A stretch of DNA of 64,000 bases. Source: an uncultured virus (IMG/VR IMGVR_UViG_3300023184_000091) (Duplodnaviria > Heunggongvirae > Uroviricota > Caudoviricetes). The notes beneath the pieces were generated by a model. The model was not told the origin of the DNA. It made no database searches and saw only the letters and a program-made list of their open reading frames with translations. Position 1 is the first letter of the stretch, and every line of letters begins with the position of its first letter. This document shows positions 38,978 through 58,885 of this stretch, piece after piece. The position numbers were made by a program, and so were the translations under genes. The stretch lies in IMG/VR virus record IMGVR_UViG_3300023184_000091; one strand, written 5' to 3'.

Positions 38978-39346
38978 TTACTTTATCCCTTCAATGATCT
39001 TGTTAATCTCTCCTAAATGATATTTGTTGCTCTTAACGCTTTTCATTTTCTTATCTAAGAAAAGATTATGGGTAATAACACACTTAGAATTGTTACCATA
39101 GTAAGTAATAGAGTTGTCTATATTAATTGGATACAGCTTGTAGTCATTCCTATCCCTCTTTTCTAGATAGTAAAATTCACCATCCTTTACCATCACTTTG
39201 AAGTAACTAAACTCGTTGTAGTCGTACTCACGGTAAAAACCTTCTTTAATCCATTCGGTAGTTGCTTTCGGCTTAATGAAGGTGTGTGCTGATGTTTTCG
39301 TTAGGTAGCTAACGATGTCTTGTTTGATTTGTTCTTTTGTTTTCAT
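38978..39346 (-). CDS. hypothetical protein
   Basis: 122 aa ORF. Confidence 0.65.
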   Translation of the reverse strand: MKTKEQIKQDIVSYLTKTSAHTFIKPKATTEWIKEGFYREYDYNEFSYFKVMVKDGEFYYLEKRDRNDYKLYPINIDNSITYYGNNSKCVITHNLFLDKKMKSVKSNKYHLGEINKIIEGIK

Positions 39347-39369
39347 GATTTTTATTTTTTTATTGTTAA

Positions 39370-39999
39370 TTATTTTTTAATCCATTGGTAGTAACCTTCC
39401 ATTACCCCATTTTCGTGTTTTTCAAAAAGACCTGATTTGTAAACTGATTGAACGTTATGAGGATTAGATCCTTGGTCCTTTCCGTTCCCATCGTAAACCT
39501 TCCAGGTGTAGTAGTGGTGCATATTCGGTTTCAGTGTCTGATCGTCAACCAGTTTATTCTGAAACCACGTCCATCCTTTATCTGAGTTAATCAAAGCTCT
39601 CTCCACTCCTTCTGTCTCGAATCTAGTGTGCATTTCTACCGCACTGTCGTAGGCTTCTTTTGCTTGCTTTAGGATTACGTTTTCCCTTTCCTTCCTTTGT
39701 TCTTCAATGGAATATCCAAGACTGAATTTGAACTTAGATTCAATCTCTTCCCACGAAGGAATACGATATGTGCAGATTAAATTATCAACGAAATCGTCTA
39801 TTTCATCACAGTGGATATCGACCTTGTTGCCTTGGGTGCTGTAGTTCCAGTTACCTTCTTCATCAATGTAACTGTAAGGTCCATCCCAATATCCGGGTTT
39901 TAGTTCTGCGAATTTGGGTACTCCGCCATACATTCTTACGTGCGCTTCTCCACCCGGATCAGCTTCTTGTAACATTTTAATAAATTCACTTGTTTTCAT
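39370..39999 (-). CDS. hypothetical phage protein
   Basis: LQEADPGGE...KPGYWDGPY. Confidence 0.75.
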   Translation of the reverse strand: MKTSEFIKMLQEADPGGEAHVRMYGGVPKFAELKPGYWDGPYSYIDEEGNWNYSTQGNKVDIHCDEIDDFVDNLICTYRIPSWEEIESKFKFSLGYSIEEQRKERENVILKQAKEAYDSAVEMHTRFETEGVERALINSDKGWTWFQNKLVDDQTLKPNMHHYYTWKVYDGNGKDQGSNPHNVQSVYKSGLFEKHENGVMEGYYQWIKK

Positions 40000-40013
40000 A
40001 ATTGTTTTTTTAT

Positions 40014-40355
40014 TTAATTTTTAGGATTACATAGGGGCAAATGAGAAAGGCCTTTACGAATCTCCGGCGATCCATAAAGGCACAATGATGTATACTCGTC
40101 TACGTCAGGCTCAAAAAACAATGATGCCTCTGTTAGATGAGAATATTTCTCATGAAGTTTTAATAAATGTTCTTGTGATTTTGCGGAAAGACAAATAATG
40201 GAGTTTGACTCCTCTTTCCATTTGCCGAATGTTTCTGGATGCTCGTAAGCAAAGTCGGCGATTGAATGTGTGGACTGGACCACTTGGTAACCTGGGTTGA
40301 TGTCTTGTCTGGTTACTATGACAAGTTTCGGTTGTTGAAATTTAATCTAGTTCAT
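40014..40355 (-). CDS. pth2: Pth2-family peptidyl-tRNA hydrolase with an in-frame TAG at codon 3
   Basis: ATG AAC TAG ATT AAA TTT CAA CAA CCG then KLVIVTRQDINPGYQVVQSTHS (Pth2 N-terminal signature), IICL, EPD...TSLCL...LSHLPL; TAG at 40347-40349 is in frame with the tracked 40014-40283 ORF. Confidence 0.75.
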
Positions 40356-40399
40356 GTTCATTATATATTTGTTTTTAAAAAAGTTTCGATTCTTAAAAA

Positions 40400-40630
40400 T
40401 AACACCCTAATTTATCCAACTTACAGGTGTCGTGGCTGTCCTCCAGAGCTTGACCCGAAAAGAGTACAAGTTAGAGTTAGGAATAAACTACTGAGCGAAT
40501 CACAACTAGTAAGCTCTTTTGGTGCAGATAGTTAATCTGAATAGAACTTTGTCCTATTAGCAATCCCATATGGCCATCACACCATTTCCCATCGTTCAGA
40601 GCTGAACTATCCGTTGTCTGTTACGGAACG
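40400..40630 (-). ncRNA. candidate structured RNA
   Basis: No convincing ORF; serial hairpins CCGT/ACGG, GTTCAG/CTGAAC, AATAGGAC/GTTCTATT, CAGAT/ATCTG, AAAAGAG/CTCTTTT, ACACC/GGTGT. Confidence 0.4.
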
Positions 40631-40632
40631 TG

Positions 40633-40702
40633 TAGTCAGGACAGGAATCGAACCTGCTCTCGCCCTTATGATCGGGTGCGTATACCAACACGCCACCTGA
40701 CT
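40633..40702 (-). tRNA. atypical tRNA-like gene (CAT within a shortened anticodon arm)
   Basis: AGTCAGG/CCTGACT acceptor, GCGT/ACGC D-stem, GGTTCGATTCC T-arm; anticodon arm only CCC-GATCATAA-GGG. Confidence 0.6.
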
Positions 40703-40705
40703 ATT

Positions 40706-40852
40706 TTATTTCCACCAATATTCTCCGTAAGTCTTCTTCATGTAATCATCTACCTCTTGTTTACCGTCAACCTTTTTAATGGTATTATCGTATATCCAAC
40801 CAAGAGCATAACCTACACAAAATCCAATAATTACTAGTATTAATGTTTCCAT
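40706..40852 (-). CDS. small single-TM protein
   Basis: METLILVIIGFCVGYALGWIY; the longer tracked start overlaps a tRNA. Confidence 0.55.
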   Translation of the reverse strand: METLILVIIGFCVGYALGWIYDNTIKKVDGKQEVDDYMKKTYGEYWWK

Positions 40853-40866
40853 AATTTTAATTTTAG

Positions 40867-40965
40867 TAGTCAGGACAGGGATCGAACCTGCATACTGTGG
40901 AGATTTAATTGACTCCTTCACGCTCCTTACAGGGGCGCCGCCTCAACCAATTGGGCTACCTGACT
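40867..40965 (-). tRNA. atypical tRNA-Tyr(GTA)-like gene with a ~29 nt variable arm
   Basis: AGTCAGG/CCTGACT acceptor; CGCCC-CTGTAAG-GAGCG anticodon arm; GGTTCGATCCC T-arm. Confidence 0.6.
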
Positions 40966-40971
40966 ATTTTT

Positions 40972-41124
40972 AAAACCCAGCATCACTCAGATGGGTATTT
41001 GTTACCTTGTCACAATCCGTGCCTGCAGTTCGGTTAGCTATTCCGTCCTTGCCCAACAGCTTTATGTTGGCTTATAATTGGCTATTTCAAAGTAACTCAC
41101 ATCCTTATTTGTGATGTGGGTTTT
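40972..41124 (-). ncRNA. candidate ~150 nt structured RNA
   Basis: Ends pair (AAAACCCACATCAC / GTGATGCTGGGTTTT); inner GTTACTTTG/CAAGGTAAC; CCAACA/TGTTGG hairpin; flanked by tRNAs. Confidence 0.55.
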
Positions 41125-41126
41125 TG

Positions 41127-41206
41127 TGATCCTAGCAGGATTTGAACCCGATGCTATCTGTTTTAGAGGCAGACCCGACTTCCACGCCGTTTTAAGCTCT
41201 AGGACC
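41127..41206 (-). tRNA. amber-suppressor-like tRNA (anticodon CUA)
   Basis: GGTCCTA/TAGGATC acceptor; TCTGC-CT CTA AA-ACAGA anticodon arm (anticodon at 41164-41166); GGTTCAAATCC T-arm; enlarged D region. Confidence 0.7.
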
Positions 41207-41260
41207 ATTCCATTTACTCTACAAATATAATCCATATTCACGGATTAAAAAAATGTAGAG

Positions 41261-41545
41261 CTATTTATTTTCTTCTTTTTTCACATTGATCCATTCTGGA
41301 CCTGTTTTTAGAAACTCTTCAAACCTCTCTGCTACAGTTGGACCTGATCCGATAGCTCCATAGGTACCTGGGCATAGTTTATTAAGGAGAAGGTGCATTT
41401 GACTGATTTCCTTCTCAATATCATATATTCTATCTCTTGAAGCGCTTGAAGAGATGGTATGATTGTTTCCTTGACTATCTATAACTGAGATAATATCTCC
41501 AATAACCTGAATATCCCCGTGGTTAGGTAATTTAACGTTCATCAT
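41261..41545 (-). CDS. hypothetical protein
   Basis: 94 aa ORF. Confidence 0.6.
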   Translation of the reverse strand: MMNVKLPNHGDIQVIGDIISVIDSQGNNHTISSSASRDRIYDIEKEISQMHLLLNKLCPGTYGAIGSGPTVAERFEEFLKTGPEWINVKKEENK

Positions 41546-42595
41546 TTAGAATACGAATGGTTCAAAATTTTTGTACTTGAAATTCTTGTGTATAGAGTTA
41601 TAGTCTGAAATCTTCAGTATAATTTCCTTAGATCCTCTTTTATCTGGTTTGACTGCGATCACGTCAGTGTCCATAACTCTTATTATGCGACCAAGGTAAT
41701 CACCCTCGGCTTCAAAGTATCTTCCTACTGAATCCTCGTCAAATTCTCTAGGGTAAATTCTAATCCCTTTGTGTAAAACTTCCTCTATAATCTCACCACC
41801 TTTTGTCTCCGTTAATTTGGTCACTGTGTATTTCCCTGTGATCTTTTTAACGTTAAAGACGTCCATGAACACCGAAGGTGGTTCATTGTGGATGTTTACC
41901 TCCTCGATAATTGATTTCACAACATCTATCGTTATGACCTCAAGGTTTGATATTGCGGATAGCAATTCTCCTTTATGTTTTTTATACTTAAGAAGATCGT
42001 CAACAATCTCTTCGATGATCTCAGGTGAAAGATCCTTAAAAGTTTTTTGGTATCTAATTCTGCTAGGCCTCTGTAATAGGTTCTCGTTGATGTAAGTGTT
42101 GTTTGTGGTAAGCATGAATAGCTTTCTTGACGAAGAAGTTAGCACGCCGTCCATCACTGTCAAAAGTTCCGAATCCTCACCAAACACTTTTTCATACTCG
42201 TCCATCATTACAATTACATCCTGTTCGATCTCGTTCAGATAATCTGGTATTCCTCCCCCATCTGGATTTTCGTTTACCAGAATCACCGGAAGATTTAGAC
42301 GATTGCATATCACCTTAGCTGTTACTGTCTTTCCTGTACCTTTAAGACCGTTTAGCAGAACCCCTAGATTTTTATTTGTCGAATTCCAAGTTTTGATCAC
42401 CCTCTCAATAAGAGAAGTTTCCAAGCCATACAGCTTGTGCCCAAATTCAAATTTTTCTTCAATCCTATCAAGATAGAATCCAAACATTGTTTTGTTCAGC
42501 ACATACACTCCAGCAGGAAGTTCCTTAATGTGCTTAGTCGTTTCCCCCAGGGTAAAGTTATTACCGTCTTGGTTCCAAATATTTTTACTCTCCAT
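41546..42595 (-). CDS. AAA+ ATPase
   Basis: GLKGTGKT, MMDEYEK, LTTN, RPSRIRY. Confidence 0.85.
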   Translation of the reverse strand: MESKNIWNQDGNNFTLGETTKHIKELPAGVYVLNKTMFGFYLDRIEEKFEFGHKLYGLETSLIERVIKTWNSTNKNLGVLLNGLKGTGKTVTAKVICNRLNLPVILVNENPDGGGIPDYLNEIEQDVIVMMDEYEKVFGEDSELLTVMDGVLTSSSRKLFMLTTNNTYINENLLQRPSRIRYQKTFKDLSPEIIEEIVDDLLKYKKHKGELLSAISNLEVITIDVVKSIIEEVNIHNEPPSVFMDVFNVKKITGKYTVTKLTETKGGEIIEEVLHKGIRIYPREFDEDSVGRYFEAEGDYLGRIIRVMDTDVIAVKPDKRGSKEIILKISDYNSIHKNFKYKNFEPFVF

Positions 42596-42677
42596 AGTTC
42601 TTTAATTTTAGCAAAGATAATATAGCACTACGGGATAAAAAAATAAAACGGTGAATTATTTTATGAATATATAGATT

Positions 42678-43388
42678 ATGAAGCACATTAAGGAATATGA
42701 GGAATTTGGTCCGGACGAATCAATCAACGAGAATATAATTGGTGACATATGGGAAAGGTTTAAAGCTTTAATAAAAAGACTATTTGTAGGTACGCCTGCA
42801 CCTGCGCCCAAAGCTAAAGTTCCAACAGTTCCACCTCAGATAGAAGGACAGCACATGCTATACCTTCCTCATCAGCAGGGACCTTCCGGAGCAGCTAAGA
42901 TTGTTAAGATAGCTAAGGGTAAAGAAAAATTAGATGCAGCTTTAAGATCTAAGCTTTTAAATAATATGCCATCATCAGATCCTAATTATAATAAGGTTAA
43001 AACTTCAATTGATAAGGATGCAGTTTTAGCTTTCCTTGATTATCAGAAAAACACATGGATGAATTACGAAAAGGATGCTTTGAGTAAAATAAAGGCACCA
43101 GAAAATCTAAATGTAAAGAAAGCAATAGAAAAAGTTACCAATAAACAGTTCCCTATCGATTTCCTTACCACTGTTGCTTACAAAGAATCAAGGTTTAATC
43201 CCAATCCTCCAACCAATAAATCTTATCGAGGTCTATTCCAGATAGGTGATCTAGCTTGGAAACAGTTAAAGACGATAAATCCTACAAGATATAAAGGTGC
43301 TAAACCTCCATTGAACACAACACTTAATGCTCAGGCAGGACACGATTATCTTAAATGGTCATATGATCAATTCGAGAAACTAGTATAA
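42678..43388 (+). CDS. lytic transglycosylase (SLT-like), paralog of 14069-14887
   Basis: VAYKESRFNP...YRGLFQI; MKHIKEYEEF. Confidence 0.8.
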   Translation: MKHIKEYEEFGPDESINENIIGDIWERFKALIKRLFVGTPAPAPKAKVPTVPPQIEGQHMLYLPHQQGPSGAAKIVKIAKGKEKLDAALRSKLLNNMPSSDPNYNKVKTSIDKDAVLAFLDYQKNTWMNYEKDALSKIKAPENLNVKKAIEKVTNKQFPIDFLTTVAYKESRFNPNPPTNKSYRGLFQIGDLAWKQLKTINPTRYKGAKPPLNTTLNAQAGHDYLKWSYDQFEKLV

Positions 43389-47370: not shown

Positions 47371-48054
47371 CTATTTTTTCTTCGGATCTTTTTTAACAAC
47401 AACCTCATCGATGATTCCATATTTAACTGCTGCATCAGCACCTAACCAAAAATCTCTCGTTGCGTCTTTCATTACCTGTTCGGGTTTCTTTCCGCAATAC
47501 CCTCCAAGAAGATCGAAAAGAATTTTATTGCACTCTTCCCATTCTTGCATATCAATCTTTGCATCCTGAATATTACCTCTGAATCCTCCGCTCGATTGGT
47601 GTAACATCACTTTGCTAAATCTAAGTGAGCTACGTTTTCCTTTAGTTCCTGCACCTAATAGTACAGATCCCATTGAAGCTGCCATCCCGGTATTAACTGT
47701 TCTGATATCTGCAGAGATGTATTCCATTACATCAACCATGGATAAACCAGACTTAACTGATCCACCAGGAGAATCGATGTGCATAGTGATATCCCTGTTA
47801 TCCACAGAGTCCAAATACATTAACTGTGCTTGAACCACTGTTGACATATTATCATTAACTTCACCAGCAACCCAAAGAATACGATCACGCATTAAACGTG
47901 AGAAGATATCCATTTGTGTTACCCTCATTTCCCTTTCCTCTAAAATATAAGGTGTCATTGATGCTTGGATTTGCTTATCGAAATAATCTAGTTTCAATGA
48001 AGAAATCCCATGTTCGCTTCTAGCGTACTTTTCAAATTCTGATTTTTGGTTCAT
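47371..48054 (-). CDS. clpP: ATP-dependent Clp protease proteolytic subunit
   Basis: MDIFSRLMRDRI, IDSPGGSV, GMAASMG, MLHQ, RDFWL. Confidence 0.95.
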   Translation of the reverse strand: MNQKSEFEKYARSEHGISSLKLDYFDKQIQASMTPYILEEREMRVTQMDIFSRLMRDRILWVAGEVNDNMSTVVQAQLMYLDSVDNRDITMHIDSPGGSVKSGLSMVDVMEYISADIRTVNTGMAASMGSVLLGAGTKGKRSSLRFSKVMLHQSSGGFRGNIQDAKIDMQEWEECNKILFDLLGGYCGKKPEQVMKDATRDFWLGADAAVKYGIIDEVVVKKDPKKK

Positions 48055-57772: not shown

Positions 57773-58053
57773 TATCCAAATGGATTTAGTATCTGTCTGT
57801 TAATAAGTATTGAATCCTCTTCGCCTCTTGATTTTATATTCAGCGAAATTGACTCTCCATAGCAGTTAGCCACAGCTACGTTAATATCATCTTCGTCCAT
57901 TCGTGAACCAAATGTTACAAAACCTGCACCTTCGCACTTTTGGTTATATCCAACCATTTCACTGTGTTGGATCGCTGCTGAGAAAACGATTGCGCTTCCC
58001 CCAACTATTACATACTTTGCTTTATACATTCTCTTCCTCTTTTTGTTGTTCAT
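57772..58053 (-). CDS. hypothetical phage protein
   Basis: AKYV..IVFS..HS...GAGF...CYGESISL. Confidence 0.7.
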   Translation of the reverse strand: MNNKKRKRMYKAKYVIVGGSAIVFSAAIQHSEMVGYNQKCEGAGFVTFGSRMDEDDINVAVANCYGESISLNIKSRGEEDSILINRQILNPFG

Positions 58054-58885
58054 AATTAGGAAAAAAAGATCTTAGATACTCTCTGTCCTGTGTAAAGATT
58101 GGTGTTTCTGGATCAGCCTCCCATTTAGATCTAGTAAAGATATGCTTATCGTCGATTACTTGTGTATTCGGTGTTTTTGCAACCGCTTTAATAGAATCAG
58201 ATTTGATAAATTTTCTTTCAACTTTACGAATTAAAGATCCTCTCTTTTCTCTTGGGCTGTAATTGTTCCAGTTGATCCCCTTTTGAAAGAGCATCTCCTG
58301 CATACCATCGGTCTTAACCCCATTTAATTCCTTAGGACTATAAAGACTTTGTGCAGCTGAACTGATAGAGTTTCTCGTAGCGTCTTGCTGCCTCCAGATG
58401 AAATAGTTTTCTACCTCAGCTGCAAAAGGAATTTGAAATACCCTAGCGTCAAATTGAGCCATATTAAATTGAGAGATGATTGCACGACCTTGCATTGGGG
58501 TTTGTTCATAATTACCAAACCCTCTCATTAATCTTAAACGATTAAATTCTGCAGTTGCCATTGATGCAGCAACTGAAGCCATCTTCTGTAGATTGTTGTC
58601 AAACCAAGCGTGTGTTCCCAGATCATCGAAATCTGTAATTAGAATTGAGATTTCATCAGACTGAACGTATGCAAATTTAGCACCCTGGATATTCTTACAG
58701 AGATAAGCTGCTGTTGCATCCATGTCTTCCATGAGCCACATATCAAAAGGTCTTTCCAAACCTTTTGTGTAAGTGTGGAAAGCCTTTCCATCAATTCTGA
58801 TTATAGTGTAACTTCTTCTTGGAAGTTTAGTTCTCGTTCTGTCTTCATAGAACGATTTCATGCGGTCTCCGAGTTCATCTTTCAT
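58022..58885 (-). CDS. thg1: tRNA(His) guanylyltransferase Thg1-like protein
   Basis: IIRIDGKAFHTYT, YVQSDEIS, FDAR, WRQQDATRNS. Confidence 0.92.
   Translation of the reverse strand: MKDELGDRMKSFYEDRTRTKLPRRSYTIIRIDGKAFHTYTKGLERPFDMWLMEDMDATAAYLCKNIQGAKFAYVQSDEISILITDFDDLGTHAWFDNNLQKMASVAASMATAEFNRLRLMRGFGNYEQTPMQGRAIISQFNMAQFDARVFQIPFAAEVENYFIWRQQDATRNSISSAAQSLYSPKELNGVKTDGMQEMLFQKGINWNNYSPREKRGSLIRKVERKFIKSDSIKAVAKTPNTQVIDDKHIFTRSKWEADPETPIFTQDREYLRSFFPNYEQQKEEENV

What the first reader, a model, noticed from the sequence alone, without database searches (positions are those of the whole stretch)
40014..41252. Amber-gated peptidyl-tRNA hydrolase downstream of an amber-suppressor tRNA: candidate translational switch
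Seen: the pth2 frame reads ATG AAC ATG AAC TAG ATT AAA TTT CAA CAA CCG AAA CTT GTC ATA GTA ACC AGA CAA GAC.... The Pth2 N-terminal signature (KLVIVTRQD...GYQVVQSTH) lies after the TAG (40347-40349), with no ATG/GTG/TTG between the TAG and that signature; the tracked GTG start would delete it. About 800 bp upstream on the same strand, first after an early promoter, is a tRNA with a CUA anticodon. Other genes are intact in the standard code and several end in TAG, so this is not genome-wide recoding. A class-2 promoter ends 4 nt before the second ATG, suggesting a near-leaderless Met-Asn-stop minigene. Established: such minigenes (lambda bar) cause peptidyl-tRNA drop-off, which Pth resolves. Inference: full-length Pth2 is made only on UAG readthrough (charged suppressor or limiting RF1), a sensor or feedback circuit for termination stress that I do not recognise as described.
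Basis: partly seen in the sequence, partly recalled or inferred. Interest (0 to 1): 0.92.

Follow-up and report, generated by a model that had tools for sequence, protein, structure and literature searches.

The report
Amber-gated phage Pth2 with suppressor tRNA
A freshwater giant-phage gene for a peptidyl-tRNA-hydrolase-like enzyme starts with a few codons and then a TAG stop codon that is kept in every close relative, next to a phage tRNA that reads TAG, so the enzyme is probably made only when that tRNA overrides the stop.

Summary
On the minus strand the gene reads ATG AAC ATG AAC TAG ATT..., and the Pth2-fold domain begins straight after the TAG (40347-40349). The TAG is not an error: two independent DNA runs carry it. 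It is not an accident either. An ATG, 1-7 sense codons, then TAG (never TAA or TGA) precedes the domain in 6 of 7 GenBank huge-phage homologues, including cultured Tenacibaculum phage pT24. The same holds in 28 of 31 IMG/VR loci and 79 of 79 analysable metagenome loci. The base after TAG is always a purine. A tRNA-like gene with anticodon CUA lies about 770 nt upstream (41127-41206). Default tRNA finders miss it, but covariation supports it strongly. The same kind of tRNA sits on the same strand near the gene in 17 of 28 and 37 of 80 related loci. Otherwise the window and the complete pT24 genome use the standard code, with TAG as an ordinary terminator. Best reading: the Pth2-like protein is made only when the phage's own suppressor tRNA reads the TAG. 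Re-initiation after the stop is unlikely, because the next codon can be GTA, AAC or ACA. The promoter claim and the "termination-stress sensor" purpose are untested. New variant of phage stop-codon recoding.

The parts
40350..40361 (-). Leader mini-ORF ATG AAC ATG AAC (Met-Asn-Met-Asn). The 6-base unit ATGAAC is doubled here; the 99%-identical relative L064 has a single ATG AAC.
   Evidence: Relatives carry an ATG plus 1-7 sense codons at this place.
40347..40349 (-). In-frame TAG (amber) codon followed by ATT. The proposed site of suppression.
   Evidence: Conserved as TAG in 28 of 31 IMG/VR loci, 79 of 79 analysable metagenome loci and 6 of 7 GenBank huge-phage homologues. Unchanged in contigs of two other DNA runs.
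40014..40346 (-). Pth2-fold domain ORF (110 aa plus TAA stop). Invariant residues: R13, G19, Y20, Q24, H27, E79-P80-D81, T86.
   Evidence: Pfam PTH2 23.9 bits. PHROG phrog_1866, E 4.6e-15. Family profile against solved Pth2 2zv3, E 4.5e-8. AlphaFold2 pLDDT 94.3. Foldseek top hits are archaeal Pth2 and human Bit1, TM 0.72-0.78.
41127..41206 (-). Unusual tRNA-like gene with anticodon CUA. It has a 7-bp acceptor stem (GGTCCTA/TAGGATC), a 9-nt connector instead of 2 nt, a 5-bp D stem, the anticodon loop CUCUAAA closed by a C.A mismatch, and discriminator A. No CCA is encoded.
40362..40632 (-). 271-nt spacer between the tRNA-like genes and the leader ATG. No ORF with family support and no structure signal were found.
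   Evidence: RNA fold z-score -0.96. No Rfam hit. Contigs from an RNA library cover 40409-40582; this is a weak hint only.
40633..40702 (-). Neighbouring tRNA-like gene with an 8-nt anticodon loop (GAUCAUAA). It shares acceptor and T arms with the next one. Its role in the gate is unknown.
40867..40965 (-). Neighbouring tRNA-like gene with anticodon GUA and a long variable arm (Tyr-like).

Best explanation
Proposed mechanism. The gene encodes a small Pth2-fold enzyme whose translation starts at the ATG of a 2-8-codon leader and meets a UAG almost at once. In a cell without a suppressor, release factor 1 (or peptidyl-tRNA drop-off) ends synthesis after a di- to octapeptide and no enzyme is made. 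When the phage's own tRNA with anticodon CUA is expressed and charged, it reads the UAG. The purine that always follows would favour this. The full protein (leader, inserted residue, Ile/Val, Pth2 domain) is then made. The TAG is thus a cheap on/off gate that ties this enzyme's production to suppressor-tRNA activity.

Shown:
- the TAG, its strict conservation and its specificity to TAG;
- the linked tRNA(CUA) and its conserved cloverleaf;
- standard code everywhere else examined;
- the Pth2 fold.

Inferred:
- that the tRNA is expressed, charged and reads this codon;
- which residue it inserts. Lys or Gln is a guess from A73 plus U35; a second TAG inside the LR756501 homologue aligns mostly with Glu or Gln.
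- the purpose. I think the most likely purpose is feed-forward coupling: the enzyme deals with tRNA-linked by-products of stop-codon suppression, such as dropped-off or stalled peptidyl-tRNA, and is made in proportion to suppression.
For: 1. Conservation. ATG + 1-7 sense codons + TAG precedes the domain in L001-L005 and pT24 (6 of 7 GenBank records examined). The same holds in 28 of 31 IMG/VR loci and 79 of 79 analysable metagenome loci, with 1 of 80 truncated. Pooled with a stricter motif, 104 of 107 loci have it. These comprise 80 unique contexts and 15 clusters below 60% identity. The sets may share contigs.

2. Codon specificity. The stop is always TAG, although TAA is the commonest terminator: 89 of 113 ORFs in the window. 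As a control, the stop of the head-protease gene is TAA in 50 and TAG in 3 of 53 unique relatives.

3. Context. The base after TAG is a purine in every case. IMG/VR: ATT 22, GTA 6. Metagenome: ATT 67, GTA 6, AAC 3, ACA 1, ATC 1, GTT 1.

4. Second TAG. LR756501 carries a second in-frame TAG inside the domain. It aligns with E in 20, Q in 5 and D in 3 of 38 subjects.

5. Linked tRNA. My structural scan finds tRNA(CUA)-like genes only on the gene's strand, with no hit on reversed or complemented controls. It finds 23 in the window and loci, covering 17 of 28 gated IMG/VR loci. It finds them in 37 of 80 metagenome loci held within 1.5 kb. Some end 35-80 nt before the leader ATG. ARAGORN at default settings finds CUA tRNAs beside the gene in L004, L005 (two) and pT24. 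Distant, weaker candidates exist in LR745206, LR756502 and LR756504.

6. The window's tRNA is supported by covariation.

7. Standard code otherwise. Window. Neighbouring genes in L004 and L005. Complete pT24 genome: 275 ORFs cover 91%, and stops are TAA 232, TAG 34, TGA 9. Its four tRNAs over the Rfam cut-off include the suppressor, and only one mini-ORF + TAG + long frame was found, which is this gene.

8. The TAG is confirmed in other samples.
Against: - No direct evidence that the tRNA is expressed, charged or decodes this codon. The window's tRNA fails default detection. It has an odd 9-nt connector and mismatches at the pairs that close the anticodon and T stems.
- 21 of 113 ORFs in the window end in TAG, so an efficient suppressor would extend many phage proteins.
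- 11 of 28 gated IMG/VR loci and 43 of 80 metagenome loci show no CUA tRNA in the DNA held. In LR745206 and LR756502 the only candidates are far away and weak.
- The residue after TAG is nearly always Ile or Val, which a pure context effect does not fully explain.
- The pT24 pattern scan also returned 13 TAA cases and 1 TGA case, which I did not examine by homology.
- Internal in-frame TAGs in other genes of these large genomes were excluded only for the window and, roughly, for pT24.
- The RNA-library contigs over the gene may be carried-over DNA.
Confidence: 0.7

Rival explanations
1. uORF coupling without suppression. The leader is a tiny upstream ORF that ends at TAG. Ribosomes that terminate there re-initiate at the very next codon (AUU, AUA or GUA as weak starts). 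The protein would begin at Ile/Val, and the mini-ORF would only tune the initiation rate.
For: The codon after TAG is ATT in most loci, and ATT is a known rare bacterial start (recalled: infC). ATT, ATA and GTA each differ from ATG or GTG only at the third base. In mycobacteriophages Bxz1, ScoobyDoobyDoo and Phabba the TAG is followed by a GTG that is the annotated start, with a Shine-Dalgarno-like GGAGG/GAAGG 7 nt before it.
Against: The next codon is AAC (3), ACA (1), ATC (1) or GTT (1) in metagenome loci, and these are not plausible starts. A terminating uORF could use any stop, yet 0 of 104 pooled loci use TAA or TGA, although TAA dominates as terminator. It does not explain the second TAG inside the domain in LR756501. 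It does not explain the physical linkage to tRNA(CUA).
Confidence: 0.08
2. Release-factor sensor read by host tRNAs. Low-level natural readthrough of UAG by near-cognate host tRNAs makes a little enzyme. Output would rise when host RF1 is limiting, and the phage tRNA(CUA) would not be needed for this gene.
For: The gate is specific to UAG, the RF1-only stop. In the LR745206/LR756502 clade no strong CUA tRNA lies near the gene. A purine after the stop also weakens termination (recalled, from E. coli work).
Against: Every complete or near-complete genome with the gate that I searched holds at least a candidate CUA tRNA. In many loci the tRNA is the immediate upstream neighbour on the same strand, which is hard to explain if it is irrelevant.
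Confidence: 0.08
3. Negative-feedback loop. The Pth2-like enzyme acts on the suppressor tRNA itself (aminoacyl or peptidyl form). More suppression would make more enzyme, which lowers suppression, holding readthrough of the phage's own TAG terminators at a set level.
For: Homologues sit beside a suppressor tRNA even where there is no gate. tRNA(UUA) lies right after the gene in LR745208 and L092/L093 and about 600 nt before it in Lak-A1 and Lak-B9. tRNA(CUA) lies 130-300 nt after it in Bxz1, ScoobyDoobyDoo and Phabba. The active-site motifs differ from solved Pth2. 21 of 113 ORFs in the window still end in TAG, so unchecked suppression would be costly.
Against: No evidence on substrate. The gene also tends to lie inside general tRNA clusters, which inflates adjacency. 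XacN1, CM1 and ZPAH1 homologues have no tRNA within 3 kb.
Confidence: 0.1
4. The gene is dead or dispensable. The TAG would be an inactivating mutation that has spread, and no protein is made.
For: Gene callers truncate it: the pT24 annotation starts at an internal Met, and the tracked GTG ORF in the window does the same.
Against: The downstream frame stays open and conserved (15 invariant columns over 23 sequences down to 32% identity). The TAG position is kept across 15 clusters below 60% identity. A pseudogene would gather further stops and frameshifts.
Confidence: 0.02

Closest known systems
Stop-codon recoding in phages (Lak and crAss-like phages; TAG read as an amino acid by a phage suppressor tRNA). 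Proposed to delay late and lytic genes in Borges et al., bioRxiv 10.1101/2021.08.26.457843; I read passages of it.
   Same: A phage-encoded tRNA(CUA), in-frame TAG in a phage gene, a host that uses the standard code, and the idea that translation of the TAG-bearing gene waits for the suppressor.
   Different: There, many genes (structural and lysis genes) carry in-frame stops, and coding density in the standard code is low. Here the window and the whole of pT24 are standard-code, and TAG ends about a fifth of the window's ORFs. One small early-looking gene carries the TAG, always within its first 3-9 codons. The word 'hydrolase' does not occur in that preprint.
prfB (release factor 2) autoregulation by an in-frame UGA early in its own gene (recalled textbook case)
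   Same: A stop codon placed early in a translation-related gene, so that output depends on how well that stop is read.
   Different: prfB needs a +1 frameshift at a slippery site with an internal Shine-Dalgarno sequence. Here the frame continues straight through the TAG. The codon before the TAG is not fixed: 11 different codons occur. A dedicated tRNA is linked to the gene.
Lambda bar-type minigenes and peptidyl-tRNA drop-off rescued by Pth (recalled)
   Same: Two- and three-codon ORFs (67 of 79 leaders) ending in a stop are the form known to release peptidyl-tRNA, the substrate of peptidyl-tRNA hydrolases.
   Different: bar minigenes are stand-alone and end in TAA or TGA. Here the 'minigene' is the in-frame start of the hydrolase-like gene itself, always ends in TAG, and can be up to 8 codons long. 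Drop-off was not tested.
PTH2-type peptidyl-tRNA hydrolases of jumbo phages, noted in Iyer et al. 2021, Viruses 13:63, PMC7824862; I read passages of it.
   Same: The same protein fold and family in large phages. That paper suggests a role in rescuing tRNA and ribosomes after tRNA damage.
   Different: In the passages returned, that paper mentions neither an in-frame stop nor any link to suppressor tRNAs. 'Suppressor' occurs 0 times and 'amber' occurs only in a reference title.
Programmed stop-codon readthrough in viruses such as Q-beta A1 and retroviral gag-pol (recalled)
   Same: A stop codon that is deliberately read through in frame, helped by its 3' context.
   Different: Those extend a protein at its C-terminus at a low rate using host tRNAs. 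Here the stop is at the N-terminus, gates the whole protein, and the virus brings its own tRNA.

Membership tests
Pth2 (Pfam PF01981) peptidyl-tRNA hydrolase | Sequence match over the curated family threshold | tested here: met
   23.9 bits against a cut-off of 23 for the 110-aa form; marginal. Relatives score 26.3, 22.0 and 21.3 bits. The family profile hits solved Pth2 2zv3 at E 4.5e-8, and also 24bt, 1rzw, 1wn2 and 1q7s.
Pth2 (Pfam PF01981) peptidyl-tRNA hydrolase | Pth2 fold | tested here: met
   AlphaFold2 model has pLDDT 94.3 and pTM 0.88. Foldseek's first 15 ranked hits (13 rows listed) are all Pth2-type chains or unnamed relatives of that fold, with TM 0.58-0.78, and the next hit falls to probability 0.18.
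Pth2 (Pfam PF01981) peptidyl-tRNA hydrolase | Conserved Gly-Lys and Asp-Ala-Gly..Thr motifs. I recall these as holding the catalytic Lys and Asp of the Sulfolobus enzyme; the source paper was not held. | tested here: not met
   In the HMMER alignment to 2zv3, the GK aligns with an invariant GY (Y20) and DAG aligns with an invariant EPD (E79-D81). R13, Q24, H27 and T86 are kept.
Pth2 (Pfam PF01981) peptidyl-tRNA hydrolase | Hydrolysis of peptidyl-tRNA | not testable with these tools
PHROG phrog_1866, the best phage family, is of unknown function.
Alternatively coded (TAG-recoded) phage | In-frame TAG in many genes, or poor coding density in the standard code | tested here: not met
   Window: ORFs cover 89% in the standard code, and no other supported mini-ORF + TAG gene was found. 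pT24: 91% coverage, and 5 TAG sites with long open frames on both sides against 14 for TGA and 23 for TAA.
Alternatively coded (TAG-recoded) phage | TAG abandoned as a terminator | tested here: not met
   21 of 113 ORFs in the window and 34 of 275 in pT24 end in TAG.
Alternatively coded (TAG-recoded) phage | Phage-encoded suppressor tRNA(CUA) | tested here: met
Amber suppressor tRNA | Cloverleaf with CUA in the anticodon position, kept by compensatory change | tested here: met
   7 homologues: acceptor stem 100% paired with 6 of 7 pairs co-varying; D stem has 4 of 5 pairs co-varying; anticodon stem has 3 of 5.
Amber suppressor tRNA | Passes standard tRNA detectors | tested here: not met
   The window's copy gets 26.7 bits against a gathering score of 29 and is absent from default ARAGORN output. 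Copies beside the gene in pT24, LR756500, LR756501, L081, L084, L088 and L091 pass.
Amber suppressor tRNA | Expressed, aminoacylated, and decodes UAG | not testable with these tools
   Only contigs were available. An RNA-library contig touches 41054-41084, next to but outside the tRNA.
bar-type minigene | Very short ORF (start, 1-2 codons, stop) | tested here: met
   Leader length is 2 codons in 43 and 3 codons in 24 of 79 loci. The window has 4, or 2 from the second ATG.
bar-type minigene | Causes peptidyl-tRNA drop-off or toxicity when Pth is limiting | not testable with these tools

The most novel reading that the evidence does not exclude
A Pth2-like enzyme and a stop-codon suppressor tRNA may form a conserved two-gene module. 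It is carried by large phages of unrelated hosts: freshwater and marine Bacteroidota phages, Lak phages of Prevotella, cluster C mycobacteriophages, and a high-GC huge phage. In the Bacteroidota-phage branch the module has closed into a circuit, because the enzyme's own message carries the suppressor's codon at its start. Enzyme output would then report, and perhaps set, the level of stop-codon suppression in the infected cell. That would make it a viral counterpart of release-factor autoregulation. It could also be the first foothold from which genome-wide TAG recoding evolves.
Probability: 0.2. Interest if true: 0.9.

Novelty: new variant of a known kind. Interest (0 to 1): 0.8.

Why it matters
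Many phages that use the standard code carry suppressor tRNAs, and nobody knows what these are for. Here there is a concrete, deeply conserved target codon for such a tRNA, in a translation-related gene, in genomes that still use TAG as a terminator.

If the gate works as read, three things follow:
- It is a minimal natural example of a virus controlling one protein by conditional reading of a stop codon.
- It links suppression to peptidyl-tRNA housekeeping.
- It offers a plausible first step towards the genome-wide recoding seen in Lak and crAss-like phages.

It can be tested directly, because Tenacibaculum phage pT24 and its host are in culture.

It also has practical consequences. Gene callers truncate this gene (pT24 annotation). 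Standard tRNA finders miss a whole class of suppressor tRNAs with a 9-nt connector and a mismatched closing pair.

My four library searches and the passages read turned up no description of it.

Tried and rejected
- Whole genome of the window: none is held, so genome-wide statements rest on the 64-kb window and on pT24.
- DNA-level search of phage records with 39000-43000: no match.
- DNA search for the window's tRNA in five huge-phage records: chance-level hits only. I replaced it with a loop and T-arm pattern and a structural scanner. A first, stricter scanner missed most known cases. ARAGORN at 70% thresholds gave mostly noise.
- All-against-all BLAST of TAG-read-through ORFs, to find other recoded genes: swamped by near-identical loci aligning in non-coding frames. 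I kept only the internal TAG of LR756501 from it.
- Naming the suppressor's amino acid by likeness to typed tRNAs: my parse cut the sequences at 50 nt, so the result is void. I did not repeat it.
- Possible second readthrough target: the head protease at 47371-48054 ends TAG ATT and is in frame with the next gene. Rejected, because relatives end in TAA in 50 of 53 cases.
- Lak-B9 'MNI*I' upstream of its homologue: the stop is TAA, so this is not the motif.
- Structured RNA in the 271-nt spacer: z-score -0.96 and no Rfam hit.
- Sigma-70-type promoter: not above shuffles, and the scan does not cover Bacteroidota-type promoters.
- RNA runs: only short contigs (40123-40340; 40409-40582; 41054-41084). 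They give no starts, ends or strand, and DNA carry-over is possible. They neither prove nor disprove transcription.
- Catalytic residues of Pth2: the source paper is not held, and the paper I read did not give them.
- Earlier notes of this scan: none.
Full report
What is in the window

The gene lies on the minus strand. It reads ATG AAC ATG AAC TAG ATT AAA TTT CAA CAA CCG AAA CTT GTC ATA GTA ACC AGA..., which translates as MNMN*IKFQQPKLVIVTRQD... It ends at a TAA at 40014-40016. The TAG is at 40347-40349. The first canonical start after it is the GTG at 40283. That start gives an 89-aa ORF lacking the first strand and the conserved Arg and Gly-Tyr-Gln residues. Pfam PTH2 scores 23.9 bits (cut-off 23) for the 110 aa that follow the TAG, and 19.4 bits for the GTG form. 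The window has 37.5% G+C and no N.

What the protein is

- A profile of 23 family members hits solved archaeal Pth2 (2zv3) at E 4.5e-8, and four further Pth2/Bit1 entries.
- The AlphaFold2 model is confident: pLDDT 94.3, pTM 0.88.
- Foldseek's first 15 ranked hits (13 rows listed) are all Pth2-type chains, with TM 0.58-0.78. The next hit has probability 0.18.

By fold, then, this is Pth2. However, in the HMMER alignment the Gly-Lys of Pth2 aligns with an invariant Gly-Tyr, and Asp-Ala-Gly aligns with an invariant Glu-Pro-Asp. I recall those two motifs as catalytic, but I could not check this because the paper is not held. The best phage family, phrog_1866, has no known function. I therefore call the protein Pth2-like. 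Hydrolase activity is inferred.

The TAG is real and conserved

Contigs of two other DNA runs, from different samples and studies of lake or freshwater metagenomes, span 40291-40663 and 40306-40663 without a difference.

The nearest GenBank relatives are uncultured huge phages of 462-735 kb and the cultured Tenacibaculum phage pT24. Their N-termini read:
- LR745206: MNN*INETKL
- LR756502: MKN*IEETKL
- LR756504: MT*ITKQP
- LR756500: MK*INNHKL
- LR756501: MS*IYKL
- pT24: MK*ITKNS

In each case * is TAG. Only the 57%-GC LR745208 has an ordinary GTG start. That makes 6 of 7 records with the TAG.

The wider collections agree:
- IMG/VR: 28 of 31 loci have an ATG, 1-7 sense codons and then TAG. The other three (L090, and L092 = L093) have ordinary ATG starts.
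- JGI/ENA metagenomes: the best 80 of 194 hits were kept, a set biased towards close relatives. Of these, 79 of 79 analysable loci have the TAG, and one is truncated.
- Pooled under a stricter motif: 104 of 107 loci have it. These comprise 80 unique contexts, 47 clusters at 90% identity and 15 clusters at 60% identity. Nine loci dropped out because my regular expression missed them, and two were truncated. The collections may share contigs, so the clusters, not the loci, are the fair count.

On a protein tree the gated forms fill a clade of 22 and three further deep branches (LR756500/501, L091, pT24). These sit in an unresolved backbone together with the ungated forms. Either an old origin with losses or several origins is possible.

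It is TAG-specific, not just 'a stop'

No locus has TAA or TGA at this place, although TAA ends 89 of 113 ORFs in the window. As a control I followed the terminator of an ordinary gene, the head protease at 47371-48054, which ends in TAG here. Among 53 unique relatives it is TAA in 50 and TAG in 3. Ordinary stops drift towards TAA. This one does not.

The base after the TAG is always a purine:
- ATT 22 and GTA 6 in IMG/VR;
- ATT 67, GTA 6, AAC 3, ACA 1, ATC 1 and GTT 1 in metagenomes;
- ATA in pT24.

This fits what I recall of E. coli amber suppression being best before a purine. GTA, GTT, AAC and ACA argue against the next codon serving as a start.

The codon before the TAG varies: 11 different codons occur. 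There is therefore no slippery site for frameshifting or hopping.

LR756501 has a second TAG inside the domain, again followed by ATT. It aligns with Glu in 20, Gln in 5 and Asp in 3 of 38 subjects. Re-initiation cannot explain that.

The suppressor tRNA

ARAGORN at default settings reports only three tRNAs in the window, and none has anticodon CUA. Rfam gives a tRNA hit of 26.7 bits at 41127-41199, below the gathering score of 29. ARAGORN calls anticodon CUA there at 85% thresholds.

Comparison with relatives shows that the true 5' end is at 41206. The gene has:
- a perfect 7-bp acceptor stem;
- a 9-nt connector (GA plus seven bases) where tRNAs normally have two;
- a 5-bp D stem;
- the anticodon loop CUCUAAA, whose closing pair is C.A;
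- a T arm, and discriminator A.

On seven distinct homologues, 91.6% of cells pair. 14 of 22 pairs change on both sides. None of 500 shuffles reaches the observed values. Sliding the partners drops pairing to 29-47%. The closing pairs of the anticodon and T stems are mismatched in 6 of 7 sequences.

My structural scan for CUA tRNAs gave 23 hits in the window and the earlier loci, all on the gene's strand, and none on reversed or complemented sequence. 17 of 28 gated IMG/VR loci have one within 4 kb. In the metagenome loci (1.5 kb or less on each side), 37 of 80 have one, all on the gene's strand and nearly all upstream, again with 0 control hits in 211.5 kb. In several loci (L073, L079, L084, L088, L160) the tRNA ends 35-80 nt before the leader ATG.

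Canonical, high-scoring CUA tRNAs flank the gene in:
- pT24 (65 bits);
- LR756500;
- LR756501 (two);
- L081 (two);
- L084 and L088;
- L091 (two).

LR745206, LR756502 and LR756504 have only distant and weaker candidates.

The rest of the code is standard

Greedy ORFs cover 89% of the window. Besides this gene, six other 'ATG, up to 6 codons, TAG, open frame' sites exist. Four have a canonical start within 0-8 codons. The other two are short frames without family support, and one of them lies on a terminator-like hairpin. I did not test these by homology.

Genes next to the homologues in LR756500 and LR756501 are intact.

In the complete pT24 genome, 275 ORFs cover 91%, with stops TAA 232, TAG 34 and TGA 9. 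Only four tRNAs pass the Rfam cut-off (five matches at E up to 1), and one of the four is the suppressor. The only mini-ORF + TAG + long frame without a nearby start is this gene. The same scan returns 13 TAA sites and 1 TGA site that I did not examine. Sites with long open frames on both sides of a stop number 5 for TAG, 14 for TGA and 23 for TAA, so there is no excess for TAG.

Wider pattern

Homologues without the gate also sit by suppressor tRNAs:
- tRNA(UUA) lies directly after the gene in LR745208 and in L092/L093, and about 600 nt before it in Lak-A1 and Lak-B9.
- tRNA(CUA) lies 130-300 nt after it in mycobacteriophages Bxz1, ScoobyDoobyDoo and Phabba. In those three the annotated GTG start is preceded by ATG TAG or GTG TAG, lying between a Shine-Dalgarno-like run and the GTG. 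This may be a relic or a coincidence.
- Phabba's CUA tRNA has the same loop with a C.C closing mismatch as several of the freshwater ones.
- XacN1, CM1 and ZPAH1 homologues have no tRNA within 3 kb.

Some homologues are fused to a domain of about 190 aa. It is C-terminal in L083-L086, L094 and pT24, and N-terminal in XacN1 and CM1. Its Pfam HD match is weak (E 0.05). Its nearest named Atlas cluster is 'putative polynucleotide adenylyltransferase'. This is a lead towards work on the 3' ends of tRNAs. The window has no copy of this domain.

Reading

The simplest account of all this is that the phage's tRNA(CUA) reads the TAG. Full-length enzyme is then made only when that tRNA is active (confidence 0.7).

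Placing the stop at codons 3-9 makes a failed attempt cost almost nothing. It may also favour the tRNA over release factor, because termination on very short peptides is slow; I recall this from work on minigenes.

Why this gene is gated is inference. I favour feed-forward coupling to the by-products of suppression. A feedback loop on the suppressor itself is the bolder alternative. The drop-off idea is untested.

Literature

Four full-text searches found no paper that joins a phage Pth2 with a suppressor tRNA or an in-frame stop.
- The jumbo-phage review PMC7824862 (passages read) notes PTH2 but not this.
- The pT24 announcement PMC5502841 (whole text read) reports four tRNAs and no recoding.
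- The recoding preprint 10.1101/2021.08.26.457843 (passages read) does not contain the word 'hydrolase'.
- Supplements were not consulted. The tables of recoded genes in that preprint could bear on the claim.

Noticed in passing
window 40633-40702 and 40867-40965 (minus strand): Two tRNA-like genes share the same acceptor and T arms. One has an 8-nt anticodon loop (GAUCAUAA). The other has anticodon GUA and a long variable arm. ARAGORN with introns allowed joins them into one 'tRNA-Tyr' with a 260-nt intron. Contigs of another run join 40707 to 40861, so some strains seem to lack the stretch between the two.
   Followed up: partly
window 58022-58885 (minus strand): A Thg1-like tRNA-His guanylyltransferase (phrog_4717, E 7.7e-86). 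This is a second enzyme in the window that acts on tRNA ends.
   Followed up: no
L083-L086, L094, L007 (pT24); L133, L134 (CM1, XacN1): The Pth2-like domain is fused to an HD-like domain of about 190 aa, in either order. The domain's nearest named Atlas cluster is 'putative polynucleotide adenylyltransferase'. The fusion hints at a joint role at the 3' ends of tRNAs.
   Followed up: partly
L006, L092/L093, L131, L132: Ungated homologues lie next to tRNAs with anticodon UUA (ochre-type suppressors), including in the Lak phages of Prevotella.
   Followed up: partly
L130 (Bxz1) 2480-2500; L136 (ScoobyDoobyDoo) 2970-2990; L297 (Phabba) 1170-1185: In mycobacteriophage homologues the annotated GTG start is directly preceded by ATG TAG or GTG TAG. 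A tRNA(CUA) follows the gene within 130-300 nt. Phabba's record labels it tRNA-Arg(tct), but ARAGORN reads CUA.
   Followed up: partly
L019 (LR745206 388064-388143) and L027 (LR756502 401809-401887): tRNA-like genes with anticodon UCU, almost no D arm and a long variable arm. LR756504 and others also hold tRNAs with 6- or 8-nt anticodon loops.
   Followed up: no
L005 (LR756501), second TAG 34 codons after the first: A second in-frame TAG lies inside the Pth2-like domain, again followed by ATT. This 735-kb phage has two adjacent CUA tRNAs and may use TAG as sense more widely.
   Followed up: partly
whole window: TGA is almost unused as a terminator: 3 of 113 ORFs of at least 60 aa, against 21 for TAG and 89 for TAA.
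   Followed up: no
window 42663-42680 (plus strand): ATG AAT ATA TAG ATT ATG precedes the 236-aa ORF at 42678-43388. The look is the same (mini-ORF, TAG ATT), but an ATG follows at once, so it is probably chance.
   Followed up: no
window 40350-40361: The leader ATGAAC is tandemly doubled here and in some metagenome relatives (MNMN, MHMN). The 99%-identical L064 has one copy.
   Followed up: yes
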